Shown here one piece after another: positions 2,349 through 21,543 of a stretch of DNA of 64,000 nt. The notes below the pieces were generated by a model that saw only the letters and a program-made list of their open reading frames with translations, ran no database searches and was not told where the DNA came from. This stretch comes from Escherichia phage HildyBeyeler. The position numbers were made by a program, and so were the translations under genes. The stretch's first letter is position 1. Each line of letters starts with the position of its first letter. Location: sequence record MZ501074. One strand, written 5' to 3'.

Positions 2349-2357
2349 TGTGCCACC

Positions 2358-3295: not shown

Positions 3296-3464
3296 TTCTG
3301 TTCCTTTCTAAGAACGTATCATACTCAACCGTATCAACATATATGACACCATAGTCATCGGATTTATAGTCCATTTCCCATAGCTCACATCGATAGCACC
3401 AACTACCATCCGCCCATACAAATATATCATCGGGATGTGTATACACAGATTTAACTATGGACAT
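3282..3464 (-). CDS. hypothetical small protein
   Basis: ORF track; overlaps neighbours by a few nt. Confidence 0.4.
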   Translation of the reverse strand: MSIVKSVYTHPDDIFVWADGSWCYRCELWEMDYKSDDYGVIYVDTVEYDTFLERNRNGNK

Positions 3465-4279
3465 ATTTGTTTTCCCGGCATATAAGGTCTACCCTCTAGA
3501 TGAGCTTCTACACGAGCAATAAAACCAGGATCACTGAAAGCATCTACTGCACCTTTACTCCAGTAAGGAATACCACGATCTTCCAGTTGGTACATATCAC
3601 TACGAGTCATACCTTGATAGCCTGGTTTCGACGCTAGGGCACTATCATAGTAGTTAACTACCATAAGTTTCGCAGCAGTCCGATTAAGAACAGGGAATAG
3701 TTCCCAGTAGAAGTTAATTACTTGGTTAGAGCAACCAACTACAACGATCATATCTTGACTGGTAATACCATCAAAAATATTGTACATTTCTGCGTACGCT
3801 GGAGCATGCTCACCAAAAAAGATTACATTAGGTTTAACCCATTTATAATCATCTGGGTCAATAGAGTTATACCCAACATCAATAACCCGTTTATTACTAC
3901 TATTGTAGCTATCAGCTACAACAACCTCTTTTAAATATCCGTGAATGTGCAGAATATCACTATGTGGAACGCCAGCACGCTCAATAAGGTCATCAACGTT
4001 GGTAGTCAAGTTTACTACTTGACCCGGATATTTCTTATACCATTCACCAATACGCAAGTGTGCAAGATTAGGTTCAACAGTTTCTAACTCTTCACGCCGC
4101 TTGTTGTAAAACATATGGGTTTTATGATAAAAGTTACCACGAAAGGCGTGAATATTACATACTTCTTCTAGATCATAATCATCCCACAGTGCTTTACCAC
4201 TAGCAGTATCGGTACGAAAAGCTCGTACACCACTTTCAACGCTCAAACCTGCACCGCTAATAATAATTAATCTACGCAC
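3455..4279 (-). CDS. Sir2-family NAD-dependent protein (sirtuin-like)
   Basis: GAGLSVESG near N-terminus, TTNVD, HG and VVVGCS motifs in sirtuin order. Confidence 0.65.
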   Translation of the reverse strand: MRRLIIISGAGLSVESGVRAFRTDTASGKALWDDYDLEEVCNIHAFRGNFYHKTHMFYNKRREELETVEPNLAHLRIGEWYKKYPGQVVNLTTNVDDLIERAGVPHSDILHIHGYLKEVVVADSYNSSNKRVIDVGYNSIDPDDYKWVKPNVIFFGEHAPAYAEMYNIFDGITSQDMIVVVGCSNQVINFYWELFPVLNRTAAKLMVVNYYDSALASKPGYQGMTRSDMYQLEDRGIPYWSKGAVDAFSDPGFIARVEAHLEGRPYMPGKQICP

Positions 4280-4473
4280 TATACGATTCCTCGCTTAAAT
4301 CCTTCGATAATATTTCGGAGTAAAATTGCTTCCTCCGGGCGTACCTTCTCTTGCTTAATAAGCATATCCAATCCAGCAATACAACTAGTTACACCAGCAT
4401 TATAACCAGAGTTCCATTGCTCAATGAGCATGTTTTCTAGATTACTTTTTAGATTCTGATTCAAGAAGTCCAT
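4279..4473 (-). CDS. hypothetical protein
   Basis: ORF track; AGGAG 7 nt upstream of ATG. Confidence 0.45.
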   Translation of the reverse strand: MDFLNQNLKSNLENMLIEQWNSGYNAGVTSCIAGLDMLIKQEKVRPEEAILLRNIIEGFKRGIV

Positions 4474-4648
4474 AAAGTTTCTCCTCTAGTCCCATAATAC
4501 GATTTTCATAAGAAGCACGCAACTTTTCAATTGCCAGCGCACGCACTGTAACCTCATTAGAATTAATAGCTAACTGGGCCAGATCTTCTGTTTCCATACG
4601 TCCGTTGTAAATTAAGCGATATTTAAGGTGTTTCACATTCTTGGTCAT
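4442..4648 (-). CDS. hypothetical protein
   Basis: ORF track frame; start moved to internal ATG 4648 preceded by GGAG. Confidence 0.4.
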   Translation of the reverse strand: MTKNVKHLKYRLIYNGRMETEDLAQLAINSNEVTVRALAIEKLRASYENRIMGLEEKLYGLLESESKK

Positions 4649-5021
4649 TATTAAACTCCACTGCAACTGTTTCTAGGTCTTCGTCAAAAAAACTAGAGTA
4701 TGTATCTTTAAGATACTGTTTAATACTCCAAGTAATATCTTCGTATCCATCTGGACTACGTTGGTATACTTTTAACACTCTATTATACACAAATTCAAGA
4801 TTACATTTTACTTCATCTCTGTCTTCATCAAACAAGCAATATGGGTTATATGGCGATACATCTAGATTTGTTTCCACCCAATCACCAATAACGGTGGGGT
4901 ATCCAGCACCATCTATATGAGAGTAATCACCTGTGGCAGCAAAGACAGCCTCAGCAATATCATCCACGCCCAGATGGAAATCACCACATGTAGATTCAAC
5001 TATATAGGGCTTTAATTCCAT
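4623..5021 (-). CDS. hypothetical acidic protein
   Basis: ORF track; immediately downstream of nrdD, no radical-SAM CxxxCxxC so not NrdG. Confidence 0.5.
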   Translation of the reverse strand: MELKPYIVESTCGDFHLGVDDIAEAVFAATGDYSHIDGAGYPTVIGDWVETNLDVSPYNPYCLFDEDRDEVKCNLEFVYNRVLKVYQRSPDGYEDITWSIKQYLKDTYSSFFDEDLETVAVEFNNDQECETP

Positions 5022-5120
5022 ATCTTTCTCCTCTCAAATTTATAAATCTATTATACATAAATTTTTAGCTGAAAGCAAATAAAATAAAAGCCAGGTCGAC
5101 TAGCAACCCGGCTGATTAGC

Positions 5121-6947
5121 TTACTTAAGATTTAAGTGTTTTACTCTACCAAGAACTTCTTTTTGTTTCCCAGAATTGAAAGGCCTACTGCTAGGGGATC
5201 CCAAGTACCCGCAAACCCTACGTGTAACCTCTATTTCTTCAGACCCACAACTCGGACATACAAACCCACGTTCAGAGGCAACAGATTCACCCATATACCC
5301 ACAGTTGAAGCACTCATCAATTGGTATATTAACACCAATATAATGGCTACATTCTAGCCCCTTATCCACCACATACTCAAGAGCTTTGTGGAACTTTTTC
5401 ATTTGAGGTAGTTCCACAAATGATATATTACCACCATTAGCTATTTTGGTAAAATGAGCCTCGTACTCAAATTTAGTATCTGGGGCTACCTTCTCTCTTA
5501 CGTCCAAATGGTGACTATTAGTGAGATAGCCTTTATCTGTTAGCCAAGAATACTCTGGGAATCTACGTTCTAGTAATTTATTAAAACGATTACATAGAGA
5601 CTCACTAGGAGTAGCGTATAAGCTAAATCCAAGATTAGTCTCATTAGCTTTAACTTCGCAACGATTTTTTAGGTGAGTAAGAACTTCTTCTGTAAATTCA
5701 ATACAATCCCTATGGGTTTGTGGTAGACCAAACATTATTTGGCACATCTCATAGACCCCAATGTATCCAAGAGATACAGAAGATCTACCCTCAAAAATAG
5801 GCCATACATACTCTTCCCCATCTAAACGCACACCAAAACCACCGTGCATATAAAGAATAGGGGCTTGTTTAGCCTTAACTTTCTTCAGTCTGTTTAAGAA
5901 GAAGTCATGCGCTTCAAAAGCCTCATCCACATATTTGTCTAGAATATCCCAGAAATCTTCAAAAACCCCATCTGCCTCAGCAGCAACCATAGGTAGATTA
6001 ATAGACACTACACCTAAATTATTGCGCCCTGCAATTTCTCCGGAGGGGATAGCAGATAAAAAGCTACGACAACCCATAGGTGCTTTAAAATCACCAGTAA
6101 CAGCTACAACTTTCTCATAGCTTAAATAGTCCGGGTACATACGGGTAGCAGAACACTCAAGTGCTAGCTGTTTTATATCGTAGTTAGGATCGCCTGGATT
6201 TTTATTTAACCCTTCTTTAACTGAGAATACTAGTTTAGGGAAGATAGGGGTTGACTCAGCAGCACCTAAACCTTTAATACGGTTTTGGAGGATGGCTTTC
6301 TGAATCATCCTTTCCTCCCACTCCTGTCCTAGCCCAAAGCCAAGCGTAACAAAAGGAGTCTGTCCATTAGAGTTAAATAATGAATTAGTTTCATACTCTA
6401 GGGCTTGGAATGCGTCATAACACTCTTTTTCAGTGAGTTCAGTAGCATATACAGCAGCTTTCCTTTCATCCTTGAGCCAACGTAGACCACGACCCAGGTG
6501 CTTATCATAAGACTTTCTGACATAAGGGGCTAAAACCTCATCGATACGATCAATAGAAGTGCCACCATACTGAGCACCAGATACTTGGGCAATAATCTGA
6601 GCAGTGATTGCACATGCAGTAGTTATGGATTTAGGAGTTTCAATATTTGCATTACCAATTTTAGTACCATTCTTCAGCATGCCACCAAGGTCTACTAAAC
6701 AACAGTTAGTGTATCCCTGTGCCCTGTAATCCATATCATGGATGTGTATTTTACCTAGATTATGGGAGTCTAATAGATGTTTAGGTAATTCTTGTGCTAC
6801 TAAATACTTGTTGATTTCTCCAGCTAATAAGTCTCTTTGGGTATGGAACATCTCACTAGGCTTATTAGCATTATTATGTTGTAAGTCCTTATCAGCAGTT
6901 AGAGTGAGCAGGCCTTTGCAATTCTCAATTAATTCATTCTCTGTCAT
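5121..6947 (-). CDS. nrdD: anaerobic ribonucleoside-triphosphate reductase (class III RNR)
   Basis: 608 aa; C-terminal CxxC..CxxC zinc ribbon followed by RVCGY glycyl-radical motif. Confidence 0.9.
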   Translation of the reverse strand: MTENELIENCKGLLTLTADKDLQHNNANKPSEMFHTQRDLLAGEINKYLVAQELPKHLLDSHNLGKIHIHDMDYRAQGYTNCCLVDLGGMLKNGTKIGNANIETPKSITTACAITAQIIAQVSGAQYGGTSIDRIDEVLAPYVRKSYDKHLGRGLRWLKDERKAAVYATELTEKECYDAFQALEYETNSLFNSNGQTPFVTLGFGLGQEWEERMIQKAILQNRIKGLGAAESTPIFPKLVFSVKEGLNKNPGDPNYDIKQLALECSATRMYPDYLSYEKVVAVTGDFKAPMGCRSFLSAIPSGEIAGRNNLGVVSINLPMVAAEADGVFEDFWDILDKYVDEAFEAHDFFLNRLKKVKAKQAPILYMHGGFGVRLDGEEYVWPIFEGRSSVSLGYIGVYEMCQIMFGLPQTHRDCIEFTEEVLTHLKNRCEVKANETNLGFSLYATPSESLCNRFNKLLERRFPEYSWLTDKGYLTNSHHLDVREKVAPDTKFEYEAHFTKIANGGNISFVELPQMKKFHKALEYVVDKGLECSHYIGVNIPIDECFNCGYMGESVASERGFVCPSCGSEEIEVTRRVCGYLGSPSSRPFNSGKQKEVLGRVKHLNLK

Positions 6948-7137
6948 TGATTATTTCCTCAATAAACTTTATAGCTACTTTTGGTTCAATATTGAAGAAT
7001 TCCGTAGCGCCGTCAAAATCTTTGTACTGGCAATTCTGCTCTTTAAAGTAGTTATGGGCTAATTTTTCTATTCGAACTGCACTACTATATTCTCCAATTT
7101 CAAATACTTTAATTTTTTCGGCATTACTCTTCTCCAC
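6934..7137 (-). CDS. hypothetical protein
   Basis: ORF track; first gene of leftward operon. Confidence 0.45.
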   Translation of the reverse strand: MEKSNAEKIKVFEIGEYSSAVRIEKLAHNYFKEQNCQYKDFDGATEFFNIEPKVAIKFIEEIINDRE

Positions 7138-7318
7138 AGAATTTTCACACCTATTATACTAAACATTATCCACTATGTCAATTAAAATTTTCTTTCGCCA
7201 CCTAATACTGTAATATTCCGCGTATAAATAAATGATTATCTAATACCATACATTTCCCGTTAAAAGCAAGCAAATTTTTTATTTAAATGCAATATCATAG
7301 GCTTATTTAAAATTGTAG

Positions 7319-7347
7319 TTGCTTTTTACTGCATATACTGGTATAAT
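7319..7347 (+). promoter_or_regulatory. sigma70-type promoter (TTGCTT-17-TATAAT)
   Basis: Hexamers read directly; upstream A/T tract; precedes phoH. Confidence 0.6.
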
Positions 7348-7423
7348 ATATTTGTAAGTTGATAAACAAGATCTCTTTGTTGATCCTCTGTTAGAAGCGA
7401 AGTACACTATAGGAGTGTTATGT

Positions 7424-8176
7424 ATGGGAAAAGCACGTCAAAAAAGAGAGAACCGCAATGGTTCAAGAAAGCGTGGCAACAAATATGAGAATAACGTAAT
7501 TCAGGCTGATTTTTCTAATGATTACGCTAACCCAGTTGCTAAATCCCTAGTAGGTAAAAACCGAGAGCAAAAATCATATATCAATATGATCAAGAACAAC
7601 ACAGTGACTGTGGGTATCGGTGAGCCAGGTACAGGTAAAACCTTTATCCCGTCTGTTCTTGCAGCTCAGGAACTCGTAGACATTCACTCAGATATTGAGC
7701 AAGTGATCCTCGTACGTCCTAATGAACCTCTAGGTAAGTCTCTTGGTATGCTTCCTGGTGATCTAGCAGAAAAGCTAGAGCCTTGGTTGGAGCCAATAGC
7801 TGATGGTATGAAATGGGCCATCGGTGATCATGCCTATAGGGGATACGTCGAACGTCAGAAAATTAAATTTTTGGCTATCGAACATGCTCGTGGCAGAACT
7901 TTCAACAACTCCTATGTAATTGTCGATGAAGCTCAGAATATTTCCGTTGAGGCAATGATTTGTCTCCTAACTCGTGTAGGACAAGACTGCCGTTTAATTA
8001 TCTGCGGAGATATAGCTCAGAAAGACATTAAAGGTGACTCAGGTCTAGCACTCCTTATGGAAGTCTATGAGAAATACGAAAATGCCCCCTTCTCAATGAT
8101 CGAATTGATTGATAACGTTCGTTCTGCTGAGTCTAAAGCATTCTACGATATTTTTAAAGACATGGGGAAGGTGTAA
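7424..8176 (+). CDS. phoH: PhoH-like ATPase
   Basis: Walker A GEPGTGKTF and VDEAQN; ATG 7424 with AGGAG 8 nt upstream (track start 7415 is GTG). Confidence 0.8.
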   Translation: MGKARQKRENRNGSRKRGNKYENNVIQADFSNDYANPVAKSLVGKNREQKSYINMIKNNTVTVGIGEPGTGKTFIPSVLAAQELVDIHSDIEQVILVRPNEPLGKSLGMLPGDLAEKLEPWLEPIADGMKWAIGDHAYRGYVERQKIKFLAIEHARGRTFNNSYVIVDEAQNISVEAMICLLTRVGQDCRLIICGDIAQKDIKGDSGLALLMEVYEKYENAPFSMIELIDNVRSAESKAFYDIFKDMGKV

Positions 8177-8177
8177 T

Positions 8178-8375
8178 ATGGGAGACGTTGTACATCTACA
8201 CCGAAAAACTAAAATACATCGTACTTCACTGAGTGCTGCTAATATGATTACACGTAAGGAAGGGGAAGAAAGTCCTAAGACTACCCTAGCGTGGAAAATT
8301 GTAACCTCAAATCCAAATCGGCCCTTCAATTATAACGAACTAAGTACCTCAATAGATATTCTGCTGAGAACTTAA
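8178..8375 (+). CDS. hypothetical small protein
   Basis: ATG directly after phoH stop; in frame with track ORF 8109-8375. Confidence 0.3.
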   Translation: MGDVVHLHRKTKIHRTSLSAANMITRKEGEESPKTTLAWKIVTSNPNRPFNYNELSTSIDILLRT

Positions 8376-8519
8376 GTGGCCAAAAACTAGACTGACAACA
8401 CAGAAGGCCTGGGTATGAAAGTACTCGGGCCTTTTCTATCAGAAAATTTTATTTGCCAAATGACTGAGAATAAAGTAAACTATTTCCTAAATCCTGATAA
8501 CTATAAAAAGGAAAGCCAA

Positions 8520-10853
8520 ATGAGCCATCGCATTGAAAAGGTAATTAAACGTGACGGTACTGTAGAAGACTTTGCTCCTGAAAAACTCAATGGTTGGGCA
8601 GAGTATGGTTGCAAAACAGTTGATGTAAGTTGGTCTGCCATTACTATGGCTGCTCAAAAAACTCTGCCTAAAGGGGTTGTAGATTCCGACACTCTGATGG
8701 ATGCGTTAATTAAAGCTGCTGAAAGTCTTATCAAAGATAATCCAGCATACGACGTGCCAGCAAAGGAATTACGTCTTGCGCAGATGCGTAAACGCCTTTA
8801 TGATTCCTTTGAACCACCTTCTCTACGCTTCTTCCACGATCATATGGTTAGTGTAGGTGCATGGGAAGACATGAGTGCATGGATTACCGATGAGCAATTT
8901 GAAGCTCTGAATCAGGTTATCGACCATGATCGTGACCGTCTTTTCACTAGTGGAGGACTGAAACAATTCTTTGATAAGTATTCCCGTCGTAACATAGCCA
9001 CCGGTGAAATTTATGAAACCCCGCAGTTTGCCTACATGGGTATGGCAATGGCGATGCTATCTCAACCTAACTGGACAATTCTCGATGCAATCGACCTATA
9101 CAACGCAATGTCACTCCACAAAATCAACGTTCCTACGCCGCCACTGGTTGGTCTGCGCTCTAGTGATCGTGGATTTGCTAGTTGTTGCCTCGTTGATTCC
9201 ACTGACACATTGGATTCAATCGACACAGCCGAGCACATCGTTTTTAAAATGGTCGCAGCCAGAGCGGGAATCGGGTATCATCTTGAAAGCAGATCAATTG
9301 CTGATCCGGTGCGAAATGGGGCATTCCCGCATTCCGGAAAACTGCCATATTATCGACACATTGACCGCTCAGTAAAGGCCAACACTCAGCAAACTCGTGG
9401 TGGTTCTGCTACAGTGTCTTATCCATACTTTGATCCTGAAATCATTCAGTTGATGCAGGTTAAGCAACAACGTGCTACAGACGAGAATAAAATCGATAAG
9501 ATGGATTATTCTCTGAGCTTCAACAATCTTTTGTTAAAACGTTATCTTAAAAATGAAGATATTACGCTAATGTCATACTTCTATGCTCCGGAAGTTCATG
9601 AAGCGTTTTATAGTGATGACGAGGCTAAATTTGAAGAAATCTATGTGGCAGCGGAGAAACGTGTGGCATCTCTTACAAAGATCGACCACGAAGGAAAAAC
9701 AGTTCCAGCAGCTCCTAAAGTCTCTGCAAAAGAAATCCTAGATACTTGGCTGCGTATCCGAATGGAAACAGGACGTATGTATGCCCACCACATTGGGGAA
9801 TCTAATCGTCACGGTAACTTCCTTGATCCGATCCGTATGACAAACCTTTGTGTTGAAATTACTCAGCCTACACGCCCGTTCCATCATATCACGGAACTGT
9901 ATAAAACGAAAGAGCAGCTTGACCAAATGAAGCCGGAGGATATTGGGGAAGTATCTCTATGTAACTTAGGTGGTGTTGTACTAGGACGCATGGAATCTCT
10001 AGCTGAGTGGGAAAAAACTTGCTACATCCTCCTGAAATTCGTTGATACAATTATTGAAATTCAGGATTATCCGTTCCCAACTATGGAATATACGGCTAAG
10101 AAACGTCGTAATGTTGGTATTGGCCTGATGAACGCAGCAGGTGCAATGGCAGCAGAAGGTCTGGCTTATGAAGGTATTGAAGCCCGTAACTGGATTCACC
10201 GTGAGGCTGAAAAACTGTCTTACTTCCTGCATAAAGCCTCTGTACGCCTAGCTAAAGAACAGGGTGCATGTGAGTGGTTTGATCGTACTAAACCATCTAA
10301 AGGAATTCTGGTAATCGACACATACAAGAAAACTGTTGATGAGCTGGTATCCGTAGGTCTAGAAATGGATTGGGAATCTCTGCGTGCAGATATTCTGAAA
10401 TACGGTATGCGTAACTCTGTTCTGACTGCGCAGATGCCTGGAGAAAGTTCCTCTGTACTATTGGGTGTTACCAACTCAATTGAGCCACCTCGTAGGATTG
10501 TATCTATCAAGGGTAGTGCAGTGAATAAAGTAATTGCAATTGCTCCGGGTGCAACTGATTGGGATACTCTCATGAGCTATAAACTGGCCTATGATATTGA
10601 TCGCACTGAGTGGATCAAATGGAACGCCGTTTACCAAAAATTCTTGAGCCAGTCATCAAGTTTCCAGATGTATTATGATTACTCTAAATTCGAGAATGAA
10701 ATCATTCCTGGCCCAGTAGTAGTTCGTGACTTTATGACTGCGGTTAAGTATGGTATAAAGACCTGGTATTATGCTAACTTTAACACTGCGAATGGTGGAG
10801 GAGCTGGTGAAGAGGCGGCAACAGGTTGTGCATCAGGCGGTTGTCAGTTATAA
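8520..10853 (+). CDS. nrdA: ribonucleotide reductase large subunit (class Ia)
   Basis: ATP-cone KRDGTVEDF, NLCVEI active-site loop, C-terminal CASGGC tail; ATG 8520 has AAGGAAA RBS (track start 8415). Confidence 0.9.
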   Translation: MSHRIEKVIKRDGTVEDFAPEKLNGWAEYGCKTVDVSWSAITMAAQKTLPKGVVDSDTLMDALIKAAESLIKDNPAYDVPAKELRLAQMRKRLYDSFEPPSLRFFHDHMVSVGAWEDMSAWITDEQFEALNQVIDHDRDRLFTSGGLKQFFDKYSRRNIATGEIYETPQFAYMGMAMAMLSQPNWTILDAIDLYNAMSLHKINVPTPPLVGLRSSDRGFASCCLVDSTDTLDSIDTAEHIVFKMVAARAGIGYHLESRSIADPVRNGAFPHSGKLPYYRHIDRSVKANTQQTRGGSATVSYPYFDPEIIQLMQVKQQRATDENKIDKMDYSLSFNNLLLKRYLKNEDITLMSYFYAPEVHEAFYSDDEAKFEEIYVAAEKRVASLTKIDHEGKTVPAAPKVSAKEILDTWLRIRMETGRMYAHHIGESNRHGNFLDPIRMTNLCVEITQPTRPFHHITELYKTKEQLDQMKPEDIGEVSLCNLGGVVLGRMESLAEWEKTCYILLKFVDTIIEIQDYPFPTMEYTAKKRRNVGIGLMNAAGAMAAEGLAYEGIEARNWIHREAEKLSYFLHKASVRLAKEQGACEWFDRTKPSKGILVIDTYKKTVDELVSVGLEMDWESLRADILKYGMRNSVLTAQMPGESSSVLLGVTNSIEPPRRIVSIKGSAVNKVIAIAPGATDWDTLMSYKLAYDIDRTEWIKWNAVYQKFLSQSSSFQMYYDYSKFENEIIPGPVVVRDFMTAVKYGIKTWYYANFNTANGGGAGEEAATGCASGGCQL

Positions 10854-10861
10854 TAAAAACA

Positions 10862-10890
10862 AGGAGATCTTCGGGTCTCCTTTTTCTTTG
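10862..10890 (+). terminator. rho-independent terminator
   Basis: GGAGATCTTCGGGTCTCC hairpin followed by TTTTTCTTT. Confidence 0.6.
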
Positions 10891-10899
10891 AAATTTTAC

Positions 10900-10928
10900 T
10901 TGCTAATCGCTACCAGATTTGCTATAAT
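10900..10928 (+). promoter_or_regulatory. sigma70-type promoter (TTGCTA-17-TATAAT)
   Basis: Hexamers read directly. Confidence 0.6.
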
Positions 10929-10954
10929 ATCTCCATTAGTTAAGGAGATTAGTT

Positions 10955-11470
10955 TTGATAACACAAGATGAATTAAAAAGGATTCTGGAGTATAATCCAG
11001 ATGAAGGAACATTTACTTGGTTAAATAACCAGGAAGTACACAATAAAGTAAGGGGACTACCTGCTGGCTGTTTAAAACCCCACTCAGTAGATCCTAACCG
11101 AAAAGACTTAGTAATACAAATCAAGGGTAAGAAGTATCCCGCACAAAATATTGCTTTCCTGTACATGACAGGAAACTTACCTAAAGTTATGGTTGACCAT
11201 ATAGATGGAGATTCACTAAACTATAAGTGGGCTAATCTAAGAGAAGCAGACTGGCAGTTAAATAGTCAAAATAGAAAAACTAGTAAAAACAATATATTGG
11301 GTACTAAGAATATTCGGAAGAAAGGGTCTGGATTTCAAGTTAGAAAATCCATTAACGGAAAAGAATATGTGAAAACTCTCCCAACTCTAGAAGAGGCGAT
11401 AGAGTATCGAGATTCTTTAATCCTCTCTATAACCAAAGATCCAACACTACTTAGAAACACAGATAAATAG
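10955..11470 (+). CDS. HNH homing endonuclease (free-standing, between nrdA and nrdB)
   Basis: VDHIDGD...N..WANLR HNH motif; TTG start with AAGGAG RBS. Confidence 0.75.
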   Translation: MITQDELKRILEYNPDEGTFTWLNNQEVHNKVRGLPAGCLKPHSVDPNRKDLVIQIKGKKYPAQNIAFLYMTGNLPKVMVDHIDGDSLNYKWANLREADWQLNSQNRKTSKNNILGTKNIRKKGSGFQVRKSINGKEYVKTLPTLEEAIEYRDSLILSITKDPTLLRNTDK

Positions 11471-11478
11471 GAGAACTA

Positions 11479-12624
11479 ATGACAACTTTACTTAACTTAA
11501 ACTGGGATCATACCAATAAAGATCTATTTCTCGGTGATTCTCTTGGTATTGCAGATTATGTACGAGTAGCCCATCCAGAGCTGGAAAGGCTGGCGTTATT
11601 AGCTCGCTCTCAATTCTGGACTGAAACTGAAATCAGTCTGGAAGCAGATAAGAAACAATGGCCTAATCTCCCACGAGAAATTCAGGAAATTACCCTCCTG
11701 AATTTAGCATGGCAGACTCAAACTGATTCCTTTATCAGTCGAGCGCCTGAAGCAGCTATTATGCCACTTGTAAGTCGTCCAGAATTGGAAGGTATGCTAA
11801 AGCAGTGGAGCTACTTCGAAGACCTGCATAGTCGCGCCTATAGCAATATTATTCGTAATGTGCTGACTGATCCAGCAGAATTTATTGATTCTGTAACCAA
11901 AAACCAGGAAGCATTCGCACGCATCGCTGATTCTGTTGAACTGTTCGATGAACTGTATCAGTTAGGTCAGTATTTCCTCGCAGTACGCGATCATCGTGGT
12001 GACAATACATATCCAGAAACTGAGTTCCCTGAAGTTAAACGTGAAACTCAGGCTAAACTATTAGACGCTTACTTTGCGATCTATGGTCTGGAAGCAATGC
12101 AGTTTTACGCATCCTTTGCATGTACTTTTGCTCTAGCAGAGAACGATATTCTGCAAGGTATTGCTAAGAACCTGCAATTAATCGCTAAAGATGAGGCTCT
12201 GCACACCCAGATGTCTAAAGCAATCATCCAGATTATGTTCCAGCAGTTTGACAAAGATCTGGTAGATGAAGCAGTGGCTAAAGCACCAGCACAGCTCCTG
12301 AAAACTCTGAAAACTGAAATTGAATGGGGTCATTTCATTTTCAAAGGTCGTAGTCTGATTGGCTTGAATGCAGAACTTCTAGAAGAATATCTGTACTTTG
12401 TGGGGCGTAATGCATTTATGCACATCGGTGTAGAATGGCCTAGTCATTTACCAGTAATCACTAAGAACCCCATTCCGTGGATCATGAACTGGCTGGATAC
12501 CACTTCTTTACAGCCTGCTCCACAAGAAATCCAGATTGGTGCAGCCTACCGTGTAGGTCAGGTAACTGAGACCTCTACTGATACTCTGAAAGATCTGGGT
12601 AATGAATTTGGAGATTTCTTATGA
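11479..12624 (+). CDS. nrdB: ribonucleotide reductase small subunit
   Basis: 381 aa immediately after nrdA/HNH; ferritin-like E/H-rich helices. Confidence 0.8.
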   Translation: MTTLLNLNWDHTNKDLFLGDSLGIADYVRVAHPELERLALLARSQFWTETEISLEADKKQWPNLPREIQEITLLNLAWQTQTDSFISRAPEAAIMPLVSRPELEGMLKQWSYFEDLHSRAYSNIIRNVLTDPAEFIDSVTKNQEAFARIADSVELFDELYQLGQYFLAVRDHRGDNTYPETEFPEVKRETQAKLLDAYFAIYGLEAMQFYASFACTFALAENDILQGIAKNLQLIAKDEALHTQMSKAIIQIMFQQFDKDLVDEAVAKAPAQLLKTLKTEIEWGHFIFKGRSLIGLNAELLEEYLYFVGRNAFMHIGVEWPSHLPVITKNPIPWIMNWLDTTSLQPAPQEIQIGAAYRVGQVTETSTDTLKDLGNEFGDFL

Positions 12625-13151
12625 TTACAGCAATGTATGCAGTTGGGCCGAATGGAGAGTTCGGCCTCCGAGGTAAACTTCCCTGGGGTTCCTTCAAAGA
12701 AGAGTTAGATGCTTTCTATTCTCAACTGGACGTGTTGAATCCAGATAACATCATCATTGGTGCGGGTACTTATTTAGCACTTCCAGAAGTTGTTAGGCAA
12801 CGTATGATTGGAGAATCCGACCTCTTTATTCGTGCTGACCGACCTCTGGCTGATAGCATCAAAGAAACTTACACTGCCATATCAAGGATAGGTGATACAC
12901 TACCTACTTTCCTAAAAGATCAGCAAACAGTAGTTCTAGGCGGAGCTAATCTTCTCCTAGAAATGTATCAGCATGGGCATATAGAAAGTGCTTTTGTATC
13001 TACAATCTTTAGTGAGCAGAAGCTAGAGGCAGATACATACCTAGATAGTATGATACTGGATTATAACTATGAATCCACTCGATTAGTCTATGCAGTTGGC
13101 GCAAACAGTGATAACAGCCTGCGATTTGTACAGGAATTGGTTACTTATTAA
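12621..13151 (+). CDS. frd: dihydrofolate reductase-like protein
   Basis: 176 aa; GLRGKLPW near N-terminus; positioned between nrdB and thyA. Confidence 0.55.
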   Translation: MITAMYAVGPNGEFGLRGKLPWGSFKEELDAFYSQLDVLNPDNIIIGAGTYLALPEVVRQRMIGESDLFIRADRPLADSIKETYTAISRIGDTLPTFLKDQQTVVLGGANLLLEMYQHGHIESAFVSTIFSEQKLEADTYLDSMILDYNYESTRLVYAVGANSDNSLRFVQELVTY

Positions 13152-13990
13152 TGCAACAATACTTAAAAATTTTGACAGATGTAATTTTACTAGGTGAACC
13201 CCGTAATGACCGTACAGGAACAGGCACAGTTTCAATTTTTGATTCCTATGCTAAGTTCGATCTACGTGAGGGATTCCCTGCCGTAACCACTAAACGTCTA
13301 GCCTGGAAATCAGTAGTAGGAGAACTTTTATGGTTCTTGTCTGGTTCCACAAATCTTCATGATCTACGTGTATTCACATTTGGGCGTGACGAAGGACAGT
13401 GGACCATCTGGACTCCAAATTATGAAGACCAAGCTATAAGTATGGGGTATGATAAGGGTAATCTAGGACCGGTATATGGTAAACAGTGGCGTAACTTTGG
13501 TGGGCGAGATCAGATTCTAGAACTTATTGAAGGACTCAAGAATAATCCTCATGGCCGCAGACATCTAGTTTCTGCATGGAACGTAGCTGAACTTGATAAA
13601 ATGGCATTACCGCCCTGCCACTACGGCTTCCAGTGCTATGTAAGTAACGATGGATACCTAGATCTTAAATGGACACAACGTTCTGTAGATTGTTTCCTCG
13701 GTTTACCCTTCAATATTGCTAGTTATGCTTTATTAACGCATATATTAGCAAAACTGACAGGATTAAAACCTCGTTATCTCATCTTTAGTGGTGGAGATAC
13801 TCATATCTATAATGACCACATGGAACAGGTAGAAGAACAGGTAAAACGCAAGCCACGCCCTCTACCAACTCTAGTAATGCCAGAGTTTGTAGATCTTTAC
13901 GATTTATTAGAAAATAATACGGCAGCTTGGTCCTTCCAGCTTGAAGGATATGATCCGCATCCGGCTCTTAAAGCTAAAATGTCTTCCTAA
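13151..13990 (+). CDS. thyA: thymidylate synthase
   Basis: Active-site LPPCHYGFQCYV motif. Confidence 0.9.
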   Translation: MQQYLKILTDVILLGEPRNDRTGTGTVSIFDSYAKFDLREGFPAVTTKRLAWKSVVGELLWFLSGSTNLHDLRVFTFGRDEGQWTIWTPNYEDQAISMGYDKGNLGPVYGKQWRNFGGRDQILELIEGLKNNPHGRRHLVSAWNVAELDKMALPPCHYGFQCYVSNDGYLDLKWTQRSVDCFLGLPFNIASYALLTHILAKLTGLKPRYLIFSGGDTHIYNDHMEQVEEQVKRKPRPLPTLVMPEFVDLYDLLENNTAAWSFQLEGYDPHPALKAKMSS

Positions 13991-13994
13991 CTCA

Positions 13995-14014
13995 AATAGC
14001 CCTTCGGGGCTATT
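13995..14014 (+). terminator. hairpin terminator
   Basis: AATAGCCCTTCGGGGCTATT palindrome after thyA. Confidence 0.5.
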
Positions 14015-14029
14015 ATATTTAAATTTCAT

Positions 14030-14058
14030 TTGCTTATTTAGTGAAATTTAAATATAAT
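14030..14058 (+). promoter_or_regulatory. sigma70-type promoter
   Basis: TTGCTT-17-TATAAT. Confidence 0.55.
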
Positions 14059-14083
14059 ATATTTTATAAATTGGAGGTATATA

Positions 14084-14365
14084 ATGATTTCAGCCAAAGA
14101 AGCTCAAGAACTTGCAGGATTAACAGAAGTACCCGCATTCCTAAAGTTTATAGAAGAAAAGATTGTAGAAGCTGCTAAGTCTGGAAATACAGAAGTAATT
14201 ATTCGAGATAATCCTTACGCTAGGTGGCTATATAATCCTAGAGAAATGCCAGGAGCAGCTAAATCGGTACTAAAAACCTTATCGGATAAGGGGTATCACC
14301 TCTCACAATACTACCGAGAAGCCGCCTTTGTAGACATGGGTCTTAAAATTAGTTGGGAGGTATAA
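14084..14365 (+). CDS. hypothetical protein
   Basis: ORF track; GGAGG RBS. Confidence 0.5.
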   Translation: MISAKEAQELAGLTEVPAFLKFIEEKIVEAAKSGNTEVIIRDNPYARWLYNPREMPGAAKSVLKTLSDKGYHLSQYYREAAFVDMGLKISWEV

Positions 14366-14841
14366 TGTCGGTTTTCCACATTTACACAGATGGTGCTTGT
14401 AAGTCTAACCCAGGTCCAGGTGCTTGGGGTTTTATTGTCTATAATGATAACGACGATCGTTTAGGTTCTAAATCTGGTTATAATCCTAAAACTACAAATA
14501 ATGAGATGGAACTCACAGCTATTGTAGAAGCTCTACGTTGGTCTGTTAAAAAAGATAATAGACCAATTGCTATCTATACTGATTCTGCTTATTGCAAAAA
14601 TGGCATGGAAAGTTGGATGTTTTCTTGGCAAAGGAAAGGCTGGAAGAAAGCAGATGGTGAAGTTCCCCTTAATCTAGAACTTTGGCAGGAAGCATTTAAA
14701 TTAACACAGCAGTATATCAACTTTCATAATATTAACCCTACTTTTATTAAGGTTAAAGGACATTCTGGTATTAGTGGTAATGAAGCTGTAGACGCCTTAT
14801 GTAACACAGTTATTACTGAGCAAGAACTTGCCGAGATGTGA
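14365..14841 (+). CDS. rnhA: ribonuclease H
   Basis: YTDGAC, MELTA, YTDS and GHSG...NE.D motifs; ATG 14365 with GGGAGG RBS. Confidence 0.8.
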   Translation: MSVFHIYTDGACKSNPGPGAWGFIVYNDNDDRLGSKSGYNPKTTNNEMELTAIVEALRWSVKKDNRPIAIYTDSAYCKNGMESWMFSWQRKGWKKADGEVPLNLELWQEAFKLTQQYINFHNINPTFIKVKGHSGISGNEAVDALCNTVITEQELAEM

Positions 14842-14861
14842 TAAGTAAATTAAAAATTCAA

Positions 14862-14890
14862 TTGCTTAAAGCCCTCTAATTTAGTATAAT
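14862..14890 (+). promoter_or_regulatory. sigma70-type promoter
   Basis: TTGCTT-17-TATAAT. Confidence 0.6.
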
Positions 14891-14917
14891 ATTCGTATTG
14901 AAAGTGAGGAGGGCTTT

Positions 14918-15202
14918 ATGAGAATTTATAACTCAAATTCATTAGGATTTAAACCATTGAGAAAACGTGCACAATCACCTCGTCAAATAAGAAAGGCTAA
15001 TATTGGTGAACCAGAAACACGTCTTCCACCTCCTCCAGAACAACGTTTAGTTTATCTGGACGAAGAATTAGCGGAACGCGAAAGAAAAGCTCAAGAAGAG
15101 ATTAAGCATAAGAAAATGTGTACTGCTCCAGCCTACTCCAAAGGGGCTTATCAATATATCTATACAGCCGAGGAGGCTAAAGATGCGGGGCGTAAAAAAT
15201 GA
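14918..15202 (+). CDS. hypothetical protein
   Basis: ORF track; GAGGAGGG RBS. Confidence 0.45.
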   Translation: MRIYNSNSLGFKPLRKRAQSPRQIRKANIGEPETRLPPPPEQRLVYLDEELAERERKAQEEIKHKKMCTAPAYSKGAYQYIYTAEEAKDAGRKK

Positions 15203-15648
15203 AGATTACTGAATTTAAAGGTACTTATAGTTTTTTATCTAACTTTTATTTATCACCAATTACTTTCGAATATCTAAATGAGATATGGCATGCTGATACT
15301 GTAGAACATGCTTTTCAGGCTATGAAATCCGACCAAAAAGATGATGTAGCTCATGTGCTGCGCTCCCTAAATGCAGGAGTTGCCAAACGTAGAGGACGTA
15401 AATTAACTCTGCGCTCTGACTGGGATAAGGTAAAAGATGATGTAATGTTAGAGCTTTTACGGTTAAAGTTTGCAATCCCTGATTTGAGGGACAAACTGTT
15501 AGCAACAAAAAATGCAACTTTGATCGAAGGAAATACCTGGGGAGATACATACTGGGGTGTTTGCCGAGGCATCGGGGATAATACTTTAGGAGTTCTTTTG
15601 ATGCAGGTAAGGTCTGAAATTAAAAGAAGTTTACAGTTAATAAATTAA
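15199..15648 (+). CDS. NADAR-domain (YbiA-like) protein
   Basis: FLSNFY, EHAFQAMK and WGD..WG motifs typical of NADAR/DUF1768. Confidence 0.55.
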   Translation: MKITEFKGTYSFLSNFYLSPITFEYLNEIWHADTVEHAFQAMKSDQKDDVAHVLRSLNAGVAKRRGRKLTLRSDWDKVKDDVMLELLRLKFAIPDLRDKLLATKNATLIEGNTWGDTYWGVCRGIGDNTLGVLLMQVRSEIKRSLQLIN

Positions 15649-15656
15649 AAATTCAT

Positions 15657-15685
15657 TTGCTAAACGCTTCAAATTCTAGTATAAT
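15657..15685 (+). promoter_or_regulatory. sigma70-type promoter
   Basis: TTGCTA-17-TATAAT. Confidence 0.6.
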
Positions 15686-15723
15686 ATACTTCATAAATTG
15701 ATAAACAAAAAGGAAAATAAATA

Positions 15724-21509: not shown

Positions 21510-21543
21510 ATTTTATTAACTGTAACTAAAACAAAGGAAATAT

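What the first reader, a model, noticed from the sequence alone, without database searches (positions are those of the whole stretch)
3455..15648. Sir2-like and NADAR-domain proteins: candidate NAD/ADP-ribose counter-defence enzymes
A sirtuin-fold protein (3455-4279) and a NADAR/YbiA-like protein (15199-15648) are both encoded in the early region. NADAR enzymes are reported to remove ADP-ribose from DNA guanine, and Sir2 domains act in NAD-depleting defence systems. The phage copies could antagonise DarT-like ADP-ribosylation or NAD-depletion immunity.
Basis: partly seen in the sequence, partly recalled or inferred. Interest (0 to 1): 0.6.

Follow-up and report, generated by a model that had tools for sequence, protein, structure and literature searches.

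The report
Known anti-DarT NADAR plus untested sirtuin
In this T5-like phage the NADAR gene is a 99%-identical copy of an enzyme already shown to neutralise the bacterial DarT1 toxin of the DarTG1 defence, while the separate sirtuin gene is a long-annotated, untested gene that more likely works with a neighbouring phosphatase on RNA or ADP-ribose-phosphate chemistry than against NAD-depleting defences.

Summary
Both ORFs exist at the stated coordinates and are significant domain matches: SIR2 at 3455-4279 on the minus strand, NADAR at 15199-15648 on the plus strand. The window is a T5-like phage (Markadamsvirinae).

**NADAR.** It is 147/149 identical to AdfN^Bas32. That protein neutralises DarT1 and rescues three DarTG1-sensitive phages, but not T5 on DarTG2 (Johannesman 2025). 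This half is already known.

**Sir2.**
- It is the classic T5 'sir2' gene. NAD-binding motifs and the catalytic His are intact, but there is no Cys4 zinc site.
- The nearest fold is CobB/SIRT5. It has no similarity to defence-type Sir2 NADases.
- I found no support for a role against NAD depletion.
- It is coupled to a capless HAD_SAK_2 phosphatase in both gene orders across divergent T5-like phages.
- Orthologues in three other phage lineages lie beside RNA ligase, a kinase and, in two of them, cREC genes. This matches a published but untested RNA-repair prediction (Iyer 2022).
- In three ~150-kb-type phage contigs the same HAD family sits inside NARP1-like NAD-reconstitution operons. That hints at an ADP-ribose-phosphate substrate.

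The two genes are unlinked and have different distributions.

**Verdict:** observation confirmed, interpretation half right, novelty low. The Sir2-HAD question is moderately interesting.

The parts
15199..15648 (+). NADAR-domain gene, an orthologue of AdfN^Bas32 (anti-DarT factor NADAR). The predicted catalytic and ADPr-binding residues are E36, K43, K63, R67, W75, E110, D116 and W119.
   Evidence: Pfam NADAR at E=6.3e-22. It is 147/149 identical to IrisVonRoten/Bas32 bas32_0066. Residues were mapped onto PnNADAR E43/K75/R79/W89/E125/D130/W133.
14918..15202 (+). T5.090-like small ORF. Its stop overlaps the NADAR start (ATGA). Its 3' end differs from that of phages lacking NADAR, so it marks the left edge of the NADAR presence/absence cassette.
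   Evidence: ORF list, phrog_4593, alignment with DT571/2 (no NADAR) and Bas32, junction sequence.
3455..4279 (-). Sirtuin gene, the T5 'sir2' orthologue. It carries G9AGxS13, F21R22, Y58xxR61, T92TNVDD97, H113G114, K149PxVxFFGE157, G182xS184 and N209. It has only 3 Cys, so no Cys4 zinc site.
   Evidence: Pfam SIR2. CobB is the best PDB sequence and fold match. Invariant columns come from 27 phage homologues. AF2 model has pLDDT 88.
3282..3464 (-). 60-aa ORF between Sir2 and HAD, overlapping both. It is conserved in the module in Sugarland and DaisyDussoix. Function unknown.
   Evidence: phrog_5116; tblastn in L001/L005/L006.
2789..3295 (-). Capless HAD-superfamily phosphatase (HAD_SAK_2), the conserved partner of Sir2. 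Motifs are D12xD14, S62S63, R99 and D119D120.
1956..2786 (-). Two tandem DUF7415 paralogues (2358-2786 and 1956-2348) at the end of the same gene string. They are kept even where Sir2/HAD are deleted (DT57C) or HAD is absent (Sugarland), so they are probably not obligate partners.
   Evidence: Pfam DUF7415 at E=1e-31 and 7e-34.
18636..19457 (+). ORF with an HNH_3 endonuclease N-terminal part and a cREC_REC (cyclic-phosphate-processing receiver) C-terminal domain. It corresponds to T5.084. It is a candidate third component, since cREC is adjacent to Sir2 in Vequintavirus- and Mydovirus-type phages.
   Evidence: Pfam cREC_REC at E=1.3e-12 and HNH_3 at 5e-11. Bas32 bas32_0073 is cREC alone at E=3.8e-15. 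cREC lies next to Sir2 in Gotham and Ro1.

Best explanation
The finding covers two unrelated genes of a T5-like phage.

**1. NADAR (sub-confidence about 0.9)**
- The NADAR protein is AdfN, an orphan antitoxin-like DNA ADP-ribosylglycohydrolase.
- The DarT1 toxin of the DarTG1 defence ADP-ribosylates guanine in phage single-stranded DNA and so blocks replication. The enzyme cleaves the ribose-guanine N-glycosidic bond and restores the DNA.
- Anti-DarT1 activity is shown for a 99%-identical protein. It is inferred for this copy.

**2. Sir2 (sub-confidence about 0.8 that it is not an answer to NAD depletion and that it works as a pair with the HAD phosphatase)**
- The Sir2 protein is a catalytically intact sirtuin that lacks the zinc site. 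It belongs to a phage-specific clade, is not a defence-type NADase, and does not look like an answer to NAD depletion.
- It works as a pair with the adjacent capless HAD_SAK_2 phosphatase.

**3. Most likely Sir2 mechanism (sub-confidence about 0.35-0.4, wholly inferred)**
- Sir2 uses NAD+ to remove a 2'-phosphate from RNA ends, as Tpt1/KptA does. Such ends arise after cleavage by host anticodon or other metal-independent nucleases.
- This releases ADP-ribose 1'',2''-cyclic phosphate.
- The phage cREC protein and the HAD phosphatase then convert that product through ADPR-1''-phosphate to ADP-ribose. This parallels yeast Tpt1 -> Cpd1 -> Poa1p.
For: **NADAR**
- It is 147/149 identical and syntenic with AdfN^Bas32.
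- Published rescue of DarT1 toxicity, and of T5, RB69 and Bas25 on DarTG1. No effect was seen on DarTG2.
- All ADPr-binding and catalytic residues defined in PnNADAR are conserved.
- No DarT is adjacent, so it is an orphan.
- T5 is DarTG1-sensitive. Its close relative DT571/2 lacks the gene, and the consecutive T5.090/T5.089 labels there imply T5 lacks it too.

**Sir2**
- NAD-binding and catalytic motifs are invariant across 27 homologues.
- The fold is closest to CobB/SIRT5, with TM 0.84.
- There is no PADLOC hit.
- HAD_SAK_2 overlaps it in the same gene string.
- The Sir2-HAD linkage survives a reversal of gene order in divergent T5-like contigs.
- The pair was deleted together in DT57C.
- Orthologues at 50-60% identity in Vequintavirus, Mydovirus and an Erwinia phage sit beside an Rnl1-type RNA ligase, an AAA_33 kinase and a Metallophos gene. 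A cREC gene is also there in Gotham and Ro1.
- T5-likes themselves encode cREC.
- The Y58xxR61 motif aligns with CobB Y92/R95, an anion-binding pocket. That assignment rests on established knowledge of class III sirtuins.
- The same HAD family sits inside Prs-like + NAPRTase (NARP1-like) operons in three phages. NARP1 chemistry also yields ADPR-phosphate species, and a non-homologous ADPR-1''P phosphatase, Adpp, is a known add-on there.
- The RNA-repair prediction for this clade is published.
Against: **NADAR**
- In the text I read, only ectopic expression was reported. No knockout in a T5-like phage is described.
- Two substitutions (T9A, K104E) are untested.

**Sir2**
- No biochemical or genetic data exist in the searched literature.
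- T5-like genomes show no detectable RNA ligase or 5'-kinase to finish a repair: tblastn E>0.8 for the ligase, and only weak P-loop hits for the kinase. The host enzyme RtcB, by established knowledge, does not need 2'-phosphate removal.
- The closest sequence and fold relatives are protein deacylases. The FGE loop and the YxxR motif are equally compatible with desuccinylase activity.
- HAD is missing from Sugarlandvirus, although Sir2 is present.
- Stephanstirmvirinae orthologues have no informative neighbours.
- The HAD fold search does not separate RNA-end substrates from small-molecule substrates.
- DT57C shows that the module is dispensable in the laboratory.
Confidence: 0.55

Rival explanations
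1. The Sir2 protein is an ordinary NAD+-dependent protein lysine deacylase, a CobB/SIRT5-like deacetylase or desuccinylase. It would reprogramme host or phage proteins during early infection. On this reading the HAD neighbour is unrelated.
For: - The best sequence and fold matches are CobB, Sir2Af and SIRT5.
- The catalytic His113, the FGE loop and the class-III Y58xxR61 motif are invariant.
Against: - There is no Cys4 zinc module; the protein has only 3 Cys.
- Scores are far below the NCBIfam CobB cut-offs, at 101 against 243 bits.
- The clade is phage-specific.
- Linkage to a phosphatase is conserved in both gene orders, and other lineages show linkage to RNA ligase, kinase and cREC genes.
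- The host already has CobB (established knowledge).
Confidence: 0.2
2. Sir2, HAD and cREC act on soluble NAD/ADP-ribose-derived molecules rather than on RNA. Candidates are ADPR-1''-phosphate made by RES-type NAD phosphorylases (aRES), ADPR cyclic phosphate, or a nucleotide immune signal. This would be a metabolic counter-defence.
For: - HAD_SAK_2 homologues sit inside NARP1-like operons in three phages.
- A non-homologous ADPR-1''P phosphatase extends NARP1 against aRES.
- cREC is classed among predicted ADPr-derivative processors.
- No RNA ligase is detectable in T5-likes.
Against: - T5-likes lack NARP1 genes that could use the ADP-ribose.
- No role for an NAD-consuming sirtuin is evident in such a pathway.
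- The association with Rnl1-type RNA ligase in other lineages favours RNA.
Confidence: 0.12
3. The phage Sir2 antagonises NAD-depleting or Sir2-based immunity (Thoeris, DSR, Sir2-HerA), for example as a decoy or competitor.
For: Only the shared fold name. Anti-defence genes do occur near some orthologues: an Acb2/Tad1-hairpin gene lies 4 kb upstream in ECO340P2.
Against: - There is no similarity to defence Sir2 models.
- The intact NAD-consuming active site would deepen depletion.
- T5-likes depend on an NAD-dependent DNA ligase.
- The known counter-measures use other mechanisms.
Confidence: 0.05
4. The NADAR protein is a housekeeping YbiA-type N-glycosidase acting on riboflavin intermediates, or a 'swarming motility' or GTP cyclohydrolase protein as many records annotate it. 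On this reading it is not a counter-defence enzyme.
For: - Its best PDB relative is YbiA.
- It matches TIGR02464 at E=2.6e-18.
- It has the Glu-type (YbiA-subfamily) catalytic residue E110.
- Database annotations say so.
Against: - The TIGR02464 score of 66.8 is below its cut-off of 73.7.
- A 99%-identical protein neutralises DarT1 in vivo.
- E. coli YbiA itself does not protect from DarT1.
- The gene is an accessory cassette present in a subset of T5-likes.
Confidence: 0.03

Closest known systems
AdfN^Bas32 (anti-DarT factor NADAR of Escherichia phages IrisVonRoten/Bas32 and KurtStettler/Bas33; Johannesman et al., Nat Commun 2025, PMC11825919)
   Same: It is 147/149 aa identical and the same length. 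It sits in the same position between the T5.090- and T5.089-like genes. It is a stand-alone NADAR with no N-terminal extension and no adjacent DarT.
   Different: Two substitutions (T9A, K104E) lie outside the mapped catalytic residues. This copy was not itself tested.
DarG1 / DarT1-associated NADAR antitoxins, PnNADAR and E. coli YbiA (Schuller et al., Mol Cell 2023, PMC11543638)
   Same: It shares the YbiA fold family and the conserved ADPr-binding and catalytic residues E36, K63, R67, W75, E110, D116 and W119.
   Different: It has Glu, not Asp (DarG1 type) or His (T4 AdfN type), at the subfamily-defining position. It lacks the N-terminal DNA-binding extension of DarG1. It is only 42% identical to YbiA and 33% to PnNADAR over the aligned fragments.
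Class III sirtuins: E. coli CobB, human SIRT5, Archaeoglobus Sir2Af
   Same: It shares the Rossmann NAD-binding motifs, the catalytic His, the FGE loop and the YxxR anion-recognition motif. The predicted fold gives TM 0.70/0.84 to CobB 1s5p.
   Different: Identity is about 24%. There is no Cys4 zinc ribbon. The motifs read TTNVD rather than TQNID and GIRAFR rather than GIPDFR. It has an extra C-terminal region and belongs to a phage-only clade. Scores fall below all CobB equivalog cut-offs.
Phage sirtuin clade predicted to act in NAD-dependent RNA repair, 'SP15-type' sirtuin + Swiss-army-knife HAD neighbourhood (Iyer, Burroughs, Anantharaman, Aravind, Viruses 2022, PMC9503650)
   Same: It shows the same Sir2-HAD_SAK_2 adjacency in a T5-like phage. 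Orthologues sit beside RNA ligase, kinase and Metallophos genes, and beside cREC in Gotham and Ro1, as that paper describes.
   Different: The prediction has not been tested anywhere. Added here are the cREC gene of T5-likes (T5.084), conservation of the pair in both gene orders, co-deletion in DT57C, and the HAD family's second context in NARP1-like operons.
Defence-associated Sir2 NADases (ThsA, DSR1/DSR2, Sir2-HerA/Nezha, SPARSA)
   Same: Only the Sir2 superfamily fold and NAD+ as substrate.
   Different: There is no PADLOC model hit. No sensor or partner domain is present (SLOG, HerA, pAgo, TIR). The fold-search top 50 are all deacylase-type sirtuins.
Tpt1/KptA RNA 2'-phosphotransferase with Cpd1 and Poa1p (yeast tRNA-splicing by-product pathway); Adpp of NARP1-AP (Osterman et al., bioRxiv 2026.01.28.702374)
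   Same: The proposed logic is the same: NAD-dependent 2'-phosphate removal, then a cyclic phosphodiesterase, then an ADPR-1''P phosphatase. Adpp is a Poa1p homologue attached to NARP1, just as HAD_SAK_2 is attached to NARP1-like operons in three phages.
   Different: The folds are unrelated throughout: sirtuin versus ART, cREC versus 2H, HAD versus Macro. This is a functional analogy only, and no activity was tested.

Membership tests
NADAR superfamily (PF08719) | Significant match to the family profile above the curated threshold | tested here: met
   E=6.3e-22, 79 bits against a gathering score of 35.1.
NADAR superfamily (PF08719) | Conserved ADPr-binding and catalytic residues (PnNADAR E43, K75, R79, W89, E125, D130, W133) | tested here: met
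   E36, K63, R67, W75, E110, D116 and W119 align with them.
AdfN (phage orphan anti-DarT1 NADAR) | Orthology to an experimentally validated AdfN | tested here: met
   147/149 identity and the same locus as AdfN^Bas32; the published phenotype is.
AdfN (phage orphan anti-DarT1 NADAR) | Stand-alone gene with no cognate DarT toxin next to it | tested here: met
   The neighbours are the T5.090-like (phrog_4593) and T5.089-like (DUF7022) ORFs.
AdfN (phage orphan anti-DarT1 NADAR) | Removes guanine-linked ADP-ribose from DNA and protects the phage from DarTG1 | not testable with these tools
   This needs enzyme and plaque assays. It is shown only for the 99%-identical Bas32 protein expressed ectopically.
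Canonical sirtuin deacylases (PF02146; CobB/SIRT5 type) | Profile match, NAD-binding motifs (GAGxS, (T/Q)N(I/V)D, GxS, N) and the catalytic His | tested here: met
   Pfam E=1.5e-24. G9AGxS13, N94/D96, H113, G182xS184 and N209 are invariant in 27 homologues.
Canonical sirtuin deacylases (PF02146; CobB/SIRT5 type) | Cys4 zinc-binding module in the small domain | tested here: not met
   There are only three Cys (C41, C183, C273). None lies in segment 115-148, where CobB has its cysteines.
Canonical sirtuin deacylases (PF02146; CobB/SIRT5 type) | Reaches the curated equivalog score for CobB-type deacylases | tested here: not met
   The best NCBIfam score is 101 bits against a cut-off of 243.
Defence-type Sir2 NADases (ThsA, DSR, Sir2-HerA) | Match to defence Sir2 models, or the presence of partner or sensor domains | tested here: not met
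   No PADLOC family at E<=0.1. It is a single-domain 274-aa protein. The fold-search top 50 are all deacylase-type.
Phage sirtuin-centred RNA-repair neighbourhoods (Iyer et al. 2022) | Sirtuin adjacent to a Swiss-army-knife HAD phosphatase (T5-like/SP15 type) | tested here: met
   HAD_SAK_2 at E=1.2e-20 lies two genes downstream in the same overlapping gene string. The adjacency is conserved in L006, L017, L020 and L022.
Phage sirtuin-centred RNA-repair neighbourhoods (Iyer et al. 2022) | An RNA ligase and a 5'-kinase available in the same genome to complete repair | tested here: not met
   tblastn with three phage Rnl1-type ligases and kinases against the window and the whole Bas32 genome gave no ligase hit better than E=0.8. 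The only kinase hit was a weak P-loop match to the dNMP kinase. No such product is annotated.
Phage sirtuin-centred RNA-repair neighbourhoods (Iyer et al. 2022) | NAD-dependent removal of RNA 2'-phosphate by the sirtuin | not testable with these tools
   This is a biochemical assay. No published test was found.
HAD superfamily phosphatases | Motif I DxD nucleophile and acid, motif II S/T, motif IV DD | tested here: met
NAD reconstitution pathways (NARP1/NARP3) | Adps (Prs-like) + Namat (Nampt-like), or NadR-like + PnuC-like genes | tested here: not met
   No tblastn hit at E<=1 for Prs-like or NAPRTase genes in the window or in Bas32. No ORF of NadR size (about 350 aa) among window ORFs of 140 aa or more between 20600 and 64000 matched such a family, and not all of those ORFs were profile-scanned.

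The most novel reading that the evidence does not exclude
The Sir2-HAD_SAK_2 pair, with cREC, may not be RNA repair at all. It could be a new NAD/ADP-ribose-centred counter-defence that makes or destroys a phosphorylated ADP-ribose species, such as ADPR-1''-phosphate from RES-type NAD phosphorylases or an ADPR-based immune signal. On this reading the HAD family would be a second, non-Macro type of 'NARP1-associated phosphatase'. The phage sirtuin would be the first canonical-type sirtuin with a non-protein substrate.
Probability: 0.1. Interest if true: 0.75.

Novelty: already known. Interest (0 to 1): 0.3.

Why it matters
**Practical value.** Carriage of this NADAR predicts that the phage escapes DarTG1, whereas T5 itself does not. 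That is useful for host-range prediction and for choosing or engineering therapeutic T5-like phages.

**Scientific value.** The open part is the sirtuin.
- The clade appears in roughly a thousand phage records across several families, and nobody has tested what it does.
- Its conserved pairing with a capless HAD phosphatase suggests a concrete biochemical experiment. So does that HAD family's appearance inside NARP1-like NAD-reconstitution operons.
- If the sirtuin proves to remove RNA 2'-phosphates, or to handle ADP-ribose phosphates, that would be a new catalytic use of the sirtuin fold in phage-host conflict.

Tried and rejected
- **PADLOC scan of Sir2 and HAD.** No hits, so the defence-type Sir2 analogy was dropped.
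- **PDB sequence search with HAD and DUF7415.** Nothing usable.
- **tblastn for other components in the window and the whole Bas32 genome.** Queries were RNA ligase, kinase, cREC and Metallophos. There was no ligase or kinase. The search did turn up cREC (T5.084) and a Metallophos gene.
- **Search for NARP1/NARP3 genes.** None found.
- **'Nicotinamide mononucleotide transporter' next to Sir2 in phage PSa2.** It is a 64-aa ORF, the orthologue of window 4279-4473, so I treated the annotation as an artefact.
- **RefSeq label 'Sir2' on the HAD gene (T5.105).** It traces to phrog_18062. That family appears to be built on truncated Sir2/HAD fusion remnants such as the one in DT57C.
- **Vibrio phage phi-Grn1 Sir2 neighbourhood.** Uninformative.
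- **Literature searches for experimental work on phage or T5 Sir2.** None found.
- **Functional link between Sir2 and NADAR.** Rejected. The genes are on opposite strands, 11 kb apart, with different distributions.

Full report
**What the window is.** Megablast of 3000-16000 finds 544 phage records. All the best hits are T5-like Demerecviridae (Markadamsvirinae), led by Escherichia phage DT571/2 at 93.8% identity. The annotated relative gives the local gene order: repA, T5.107, T5.106, T5.105, T5.104, sir2, small ORFs and nrdD on one strand. On the other strand come phoH, nrdA, a homing endonuclease, nrdB, frd, td, rnhA, T5.090, T5.089 and so on. By established knowledge of T5, this nucleotide-metabolism block lies in the early region.

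**Observation check.** Both ORFs are present exactly as stated.
- ORF 3455-4279 is on the minus strand (GTG start, 274 aa). It matches Pfam SIR2 at E=1.5e-24 and PHROG 2162 at E=9e-121.
- ORF 15199-15648 is on the plus strand (149 aa). It matches Pfam NADAR at E=6.3e-22 and PHROG 1017.
- The domain calls are far beyond chance.
- The two genes are 11 kb apart, on opposite strands, and separated by the whole nrd/frd/td block.

**NADAR gene.**
- Nucleotide search finds the gene in 94 phage records at 95-99% identity, all T5-like. DT571/2 lacks it.
- An alignment shows a presence/absence cassette. It comprises the NADAR ORF plus a diverged 3' end of the upstream T5.090-like ORF. The cassette lies just upstream of a shared promoter-like site, TTGCTA-17-TATAAT at 15657-15685, that precedes the T5.089-like gene.
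- The NADAR start overlaps the upstream stop (ATGA).
- One carrier is Escherichia phage IrisVonRoten, which is BASEL phage Bas32. Its protein bas32_0066 is 147/149 identical to the window protein.
- Johannesman et al. (Nat Commun 2025) named the identical NADAR of Bas32 and Bas33 AdfN^Bas32. They showed that it neutralises DarT1 toxicity in uninfected E. coli. When expressed ectopically, it restores plaquing of three DarTG1-sensitive phages (RB69, T5, Bas25). It has no effect on T5 plated on DarTG2, whose toxin modifies thymidine.
- Their discussion states that the archaeal-type and bacterial-type phage NADARs they tested have DNA ADP-ribosylglycohydrolase activity.
- The residues that bind ADP-ribose and catalyse hydrolysis in the Phytophthora NADAR structure are E43, K50, K75, R79, W89, E125, D130 and W133. 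They map to E36, K43, K63, R67, W75, E110, D116 and W119 here.
- The subfamily-defining residue is Glu (E110). In DarG1-type NADARs it is Asp, and in T4-type AdfN it is His.
- Many database records label the gene 'swarming motility protein', 'GTP cyclohydrolase II' or 'N-glycosidase'. The riboflavin-glycosidase model TIGR02464 scores below its cut-off, at 66.8 against 73.7 bits.
- I therefore file this gene as an AdfN orthologue with high confidence. One gap remains: in the text I read I saw no knockout in a T5-like phage.

**Sir2 gene: what it is.**
- It is the orthologue of the 'sir2' gene annotated in T5-like genomes.
- tblastn finds relatives in 996 phage records. These include T5-like phages, Sugarlandvirus, Vequintavirinae, Stephanstirmvirinae, and jumbo and Vibrio phages.
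- The 120 best hits in the large protein collection all carry PF02146. Those that carry names are phage proteins, apart from two Salmonella-labelled hypothetical proteins, and many sit on contigs of 100-150 kb.
- In an alignment of 27 diverse homologues the NAD-binding and catalytic elements are invariant. In protein numbering these are G9-A-G-x-S13, S16-G17, F21-R22, T92-T-N-V-D-D97, H113-G114, K149-P-x-V-x-F-F-x-E157, G182-x-S184 and N209.
- The protein has only three cysteines, and none lies where CobB has its zinc-binding cysteines.
- Y58 and R61 are invariant. They align with CobB Y92 and R95 (alignment; the numbering offset is my derivation). In class III sirtuins this pair recognises the carboxylate of succinyl- or malonyl-lysine (established knowledge). 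The pocket is therefore built for an anionic group.
- An AlphaFold2 model is confident (pLDDT 88, pTM 0.87). Its closest solved folds are CobB (E=2e-17, TM 0.70/0.84), SIRT5 and Sir2Af. No defence-type Sir2 appears in the top 50.
- PADLOC gives no hit. NCBIfam CobB models are matched far below their cut-offs.

**Sir2 gene: context.**
- The gene belongs to a string of tightly packed, mostly overlapping minus-strand ORFs: orf132, orf74, orf64, Sir2, orf60, a 168-aa ORF, two DUF7415 paralogues and a further small ORF.
- A terminator-like hairpin at 5113-5089 separates this string from nrdD. nrdD has a perfect consensus promoter-like site at 7181-7153. These are pattern matches only.
- The 168-aa ORF (2789-3295, T5.105) is a HAD_SAK_2 phosphatase (Pfam E=1.2e-20). 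The HAD motifs D12xD14, S62S63 and D119D120 are invariant.
- RefSeq labels this ORF 'Sir2' through PHROG 18062. That family seems to derive from truncated Sir2/HAD fusion remnants such as the 'defective sir2' of phage DT57C, where most of Sir2, orf60 and most of HAD are deleted together.
- The Sir2-HAD linkage holds in DaisyDussoix, where Sir2 is only 51% identical but HAD is 90% identical.
- It also holds with the reverse order, HAD-orf-Sir2, in three divergent T5-like metagenomic contigs whose HADs are 40-43% identical.
- Sugarlandvirus keeps Sir2, orf60 and the DUF7415 pair but lacks HAD.

**Sir2 orthologues elsewhere.**
- In Vequintavirus Gotham (57% identical) the operon runs RNA_lig_T4_1, cREC_REC, Sir2. 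A divergently transcribed AAA_33 kinase and a Metallophos phosphoesterase lie alongside.
- In Mydovirus Ro1 (60%) the order is Metallophos ... RNA ligase, cREC, AAA_33 kinase, Sir2, DNA ligase.
- In Erwinia phage pEa_SNUABM_55 (50%) the order is Metallophos, RNA ligase, kinase ... Sir2, DNA ligase.
- Two Stephanstirmvirinae loci are uninformative.
- This reproduces what Iyer, Burroughs, Anantharaman and Aravind (2022) described. They proposed that a distinct phage sirtuin clade acts like KptA/Tpt1, using NAD+ to remove 2'-phosphates from RNA ends left by metal-independent nucleases. Their clade includes an 'SP15-type' sirtuin + Swiss-army-knife HAD neighbourhood. In their scheme the associated enzymes either prepare the RNA end or process the ADP-ribose cyclic phosphate by-product.
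- I found no experimental test of this proposal.

1. T5-like phages do encode a cREC domain. Bas32 bas32_0073 (T5.084) matches cREC_REC at E=3.8e-15. The window ORF 18636-19457 carries the same domain fused in frame behind an HNH endonuclease domain. Iyer et al. class cREC among domains predicted to process ADP-ribose derivatives such as ADPr>P.
2. T5-likes have no detectable Rnl1-type RNA ligase or AAA_33 kinase. This is a real gap for a self-contained repair pathway.
3. Distant members of the same HAD family (37-41% identical) occur in Serratia phage ChuuTotoro and two metagenomic phage contigs. There they lie inside an operon of the form wHTH, HAD, (small ORF), Prs-like (PF14572), NAPRTase-family (PF04095).
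   - That Pfam pair is the signature of NARP1 (Adps + Namat), which rebuilds NAD+ from ADP-ribose and nicotinamide.
   - The Prs-like protein is 44% identical to that of Ro1. It is 39-42% identical to those of several ~88-kb Escherichia and Salmonella phages. I did not confirm how these relate to Bas63, the NARP1 prototype.
   - In one of the three loci (L019) this operon lies next to, and divergent from, the RNA ligase/kinase/Metallophos cluster. The same holds in Ro1 and pEa55, where the cluster also contains Sir2.
   - Osterman et al. (2026 preprint) showed that 15% of NARP1-carrying phages also carry a Macro-domain ADPR-1''-phosphate phosphatase in that operon. This enzyme, Adpp, is a homologue of yeast Poa1p. 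It lets NARP1 overcome the aRES defence, which phosphorolyses NAD+ to ADPR-1''P. Their text does not mention a HAD.
   - NARP1's intermediate ADPR-PP also decays to an ADPR cyclic phosphate.

**Inference.**
- The two contexts of this HAD family share one chemical theme: ADP-ribose bearing a 1''(2'')-phosphate. A Tpt1-like reaction produces exactly such a species. A deacylase or a plain NADase does not.
- This tilts me toward the following scheme: Sir2 as a 2'-phosphotransferase, cREC as the cyclic phosphodiesterase, HAD as the ADPR-1''P phosphatase. It parallels Tpt1, Cpd1 and Poa1p.
- Every step is inferred.

- The phage enzyme keeps an NAD-consuming active site.
- T5-likes rely on an NAD-dependent DNA ligase.
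- The documented phage answers to NAD depletion are NAD reconstitution, signal sponges and direct inhibitors. NARP1 and NARP3 genes are not found here.
- Nothing connects Sir2 to the NADAR gene. DT571/2 has Sir2-HAD but no NADAR. Sir2 and HAD occur in hundreds of records, against 94 for this NADAR.

**Verdict.** The NADAR interpretation is correct but already published with experiments on a 99%-identical protein. The Sir2 interpretation is unsupported in its stated form. Novelty: already known. Interest: about 0.3.

Noticed in passing
L016 5001-8217 (Serratia phage ChuuTotoro ON287369.1), L018 5001-8569, L019 6001-9519: Homologues of the window's HAD_SAK_2 phosphatase (37-41% identical) sit inside wHTH-HAD-Prs-like-NAPRTase operons that look like NARP1 (Adps+Namat). 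This may be a HAD-type counterpart of the Macro-domain 'NARP1-associated phosphatase' Adpp. The NARP1-AP preprint's text does not mention it.
   Followed up: partly
window 18636-19457 (+): A single 273-aa ORF joins an HNH_3 endonuclease domain to a cREC_REC domain. In Bas32 the cREC gene (T5.084) stands alone at 105 aa. The fused form occurs in 27 phage records at 80% coverage or more. In phage SelmaRatti it is annotated as an intein-containing protein.
   Followed up: partly
L007 2354-2626 (Escherichia phage DT57C); also SelmaRatti MZ501103: The 'defective sir2' is a 90-aa remnant that joins a Sir2 fragment (aa 169-233) to the HAD C-terminus. Sir2, orf60 and HAD were therefore lost in one deletion while the DUF7415 genes stayed. 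PHROG 18062 ('Sir2') appears to be built on such remnants. It makes RefSeq label the intact HAD gene (T5.105) as Sir2.
   Followed up: partly
window 1956-2348 and 2358-2786 (-): Two tandem paralogues, about 31% identical, each hold two DUF7415 repeats. They are conserved downstream of Sir2/HAD throughout the Demerecviridae, including Sugarland. Function unknown, and no solved relative was found.
   Followed up: partly
window 20861-32057 (+): A block of 21 tRNA genes interspersed with small ORFs and an HNH/NUMOD4 homing endonuclease (27487-28062). This is typical of T5-like phages. It is relevant background for any tRNA-directed defence or repair idea.
   Followed up: no
window 16546-17247 (+): The ORF annotated in relatives as 'putative metallopeptidase' or 'exonuclease' matches the Rv2179c-like 3'-5' exoribonuclease domain (E=1.6e-8).
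   Followed up: no
window 41503-42366 and 42650-43243 (+): Two calcineurin-like (Metallophos) phosphoesterases. The second is weakly similar (tblastn E=2e-4) to the Metallophos gene that accompanies the RNA ligase/Sir2 cluster in Mydovirus Ro1.
   Followed up: no
window 7181-7153 (-) and 5113-5089 (-): A perfect sigma-70 consensus site (TTGACA-17-TATAAT) lies upstream of nrdD. A 10-bp-stem terminator-like hairpin with a T-run lies directly after nrdD, ahead of the gene string that contains Sir2. These are pattern matches only.
   Followed up: no
window 10936-11470 (both strands): ORFs between nrdA and nrdB correspond in position and length to the F-TflVIII nicking homing endonuclease and the overlapping HNH ORF annotated in DT571/2.
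   Followed up: no
L008 2807-3001 (phage PSa2), orthologue of window 4279-4473: A 64-aa ORF upstream of Sir2 is annotated 'nicotinamide mononucleotide transporter'. That is implausible for its size and is probably an annotation artefact. In the same record the Sir2 gene is split into two CDS.
   Followed up: partly
L010 940-1215 (Escherichia phage ECO340P2): An Acb2/Tad1-hairpin family gene (an anti-CBASS/anti-Thoeris sponge family) lies about 4 kb upstream of the Sir2 orthologue in this Stephanstirmvirinae phage.
   Followed up: no
window 21544-22491 and 22779-23297 (+): A Band_7/SPFH-domain ORF and a small Toprim-domain ORF lie at the start of the tRNA region. Bas32 has three extra minus-strand genes between them, two of which were scanned and have no Pfam match. 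The window lacks these three genes.
   Followed up: no
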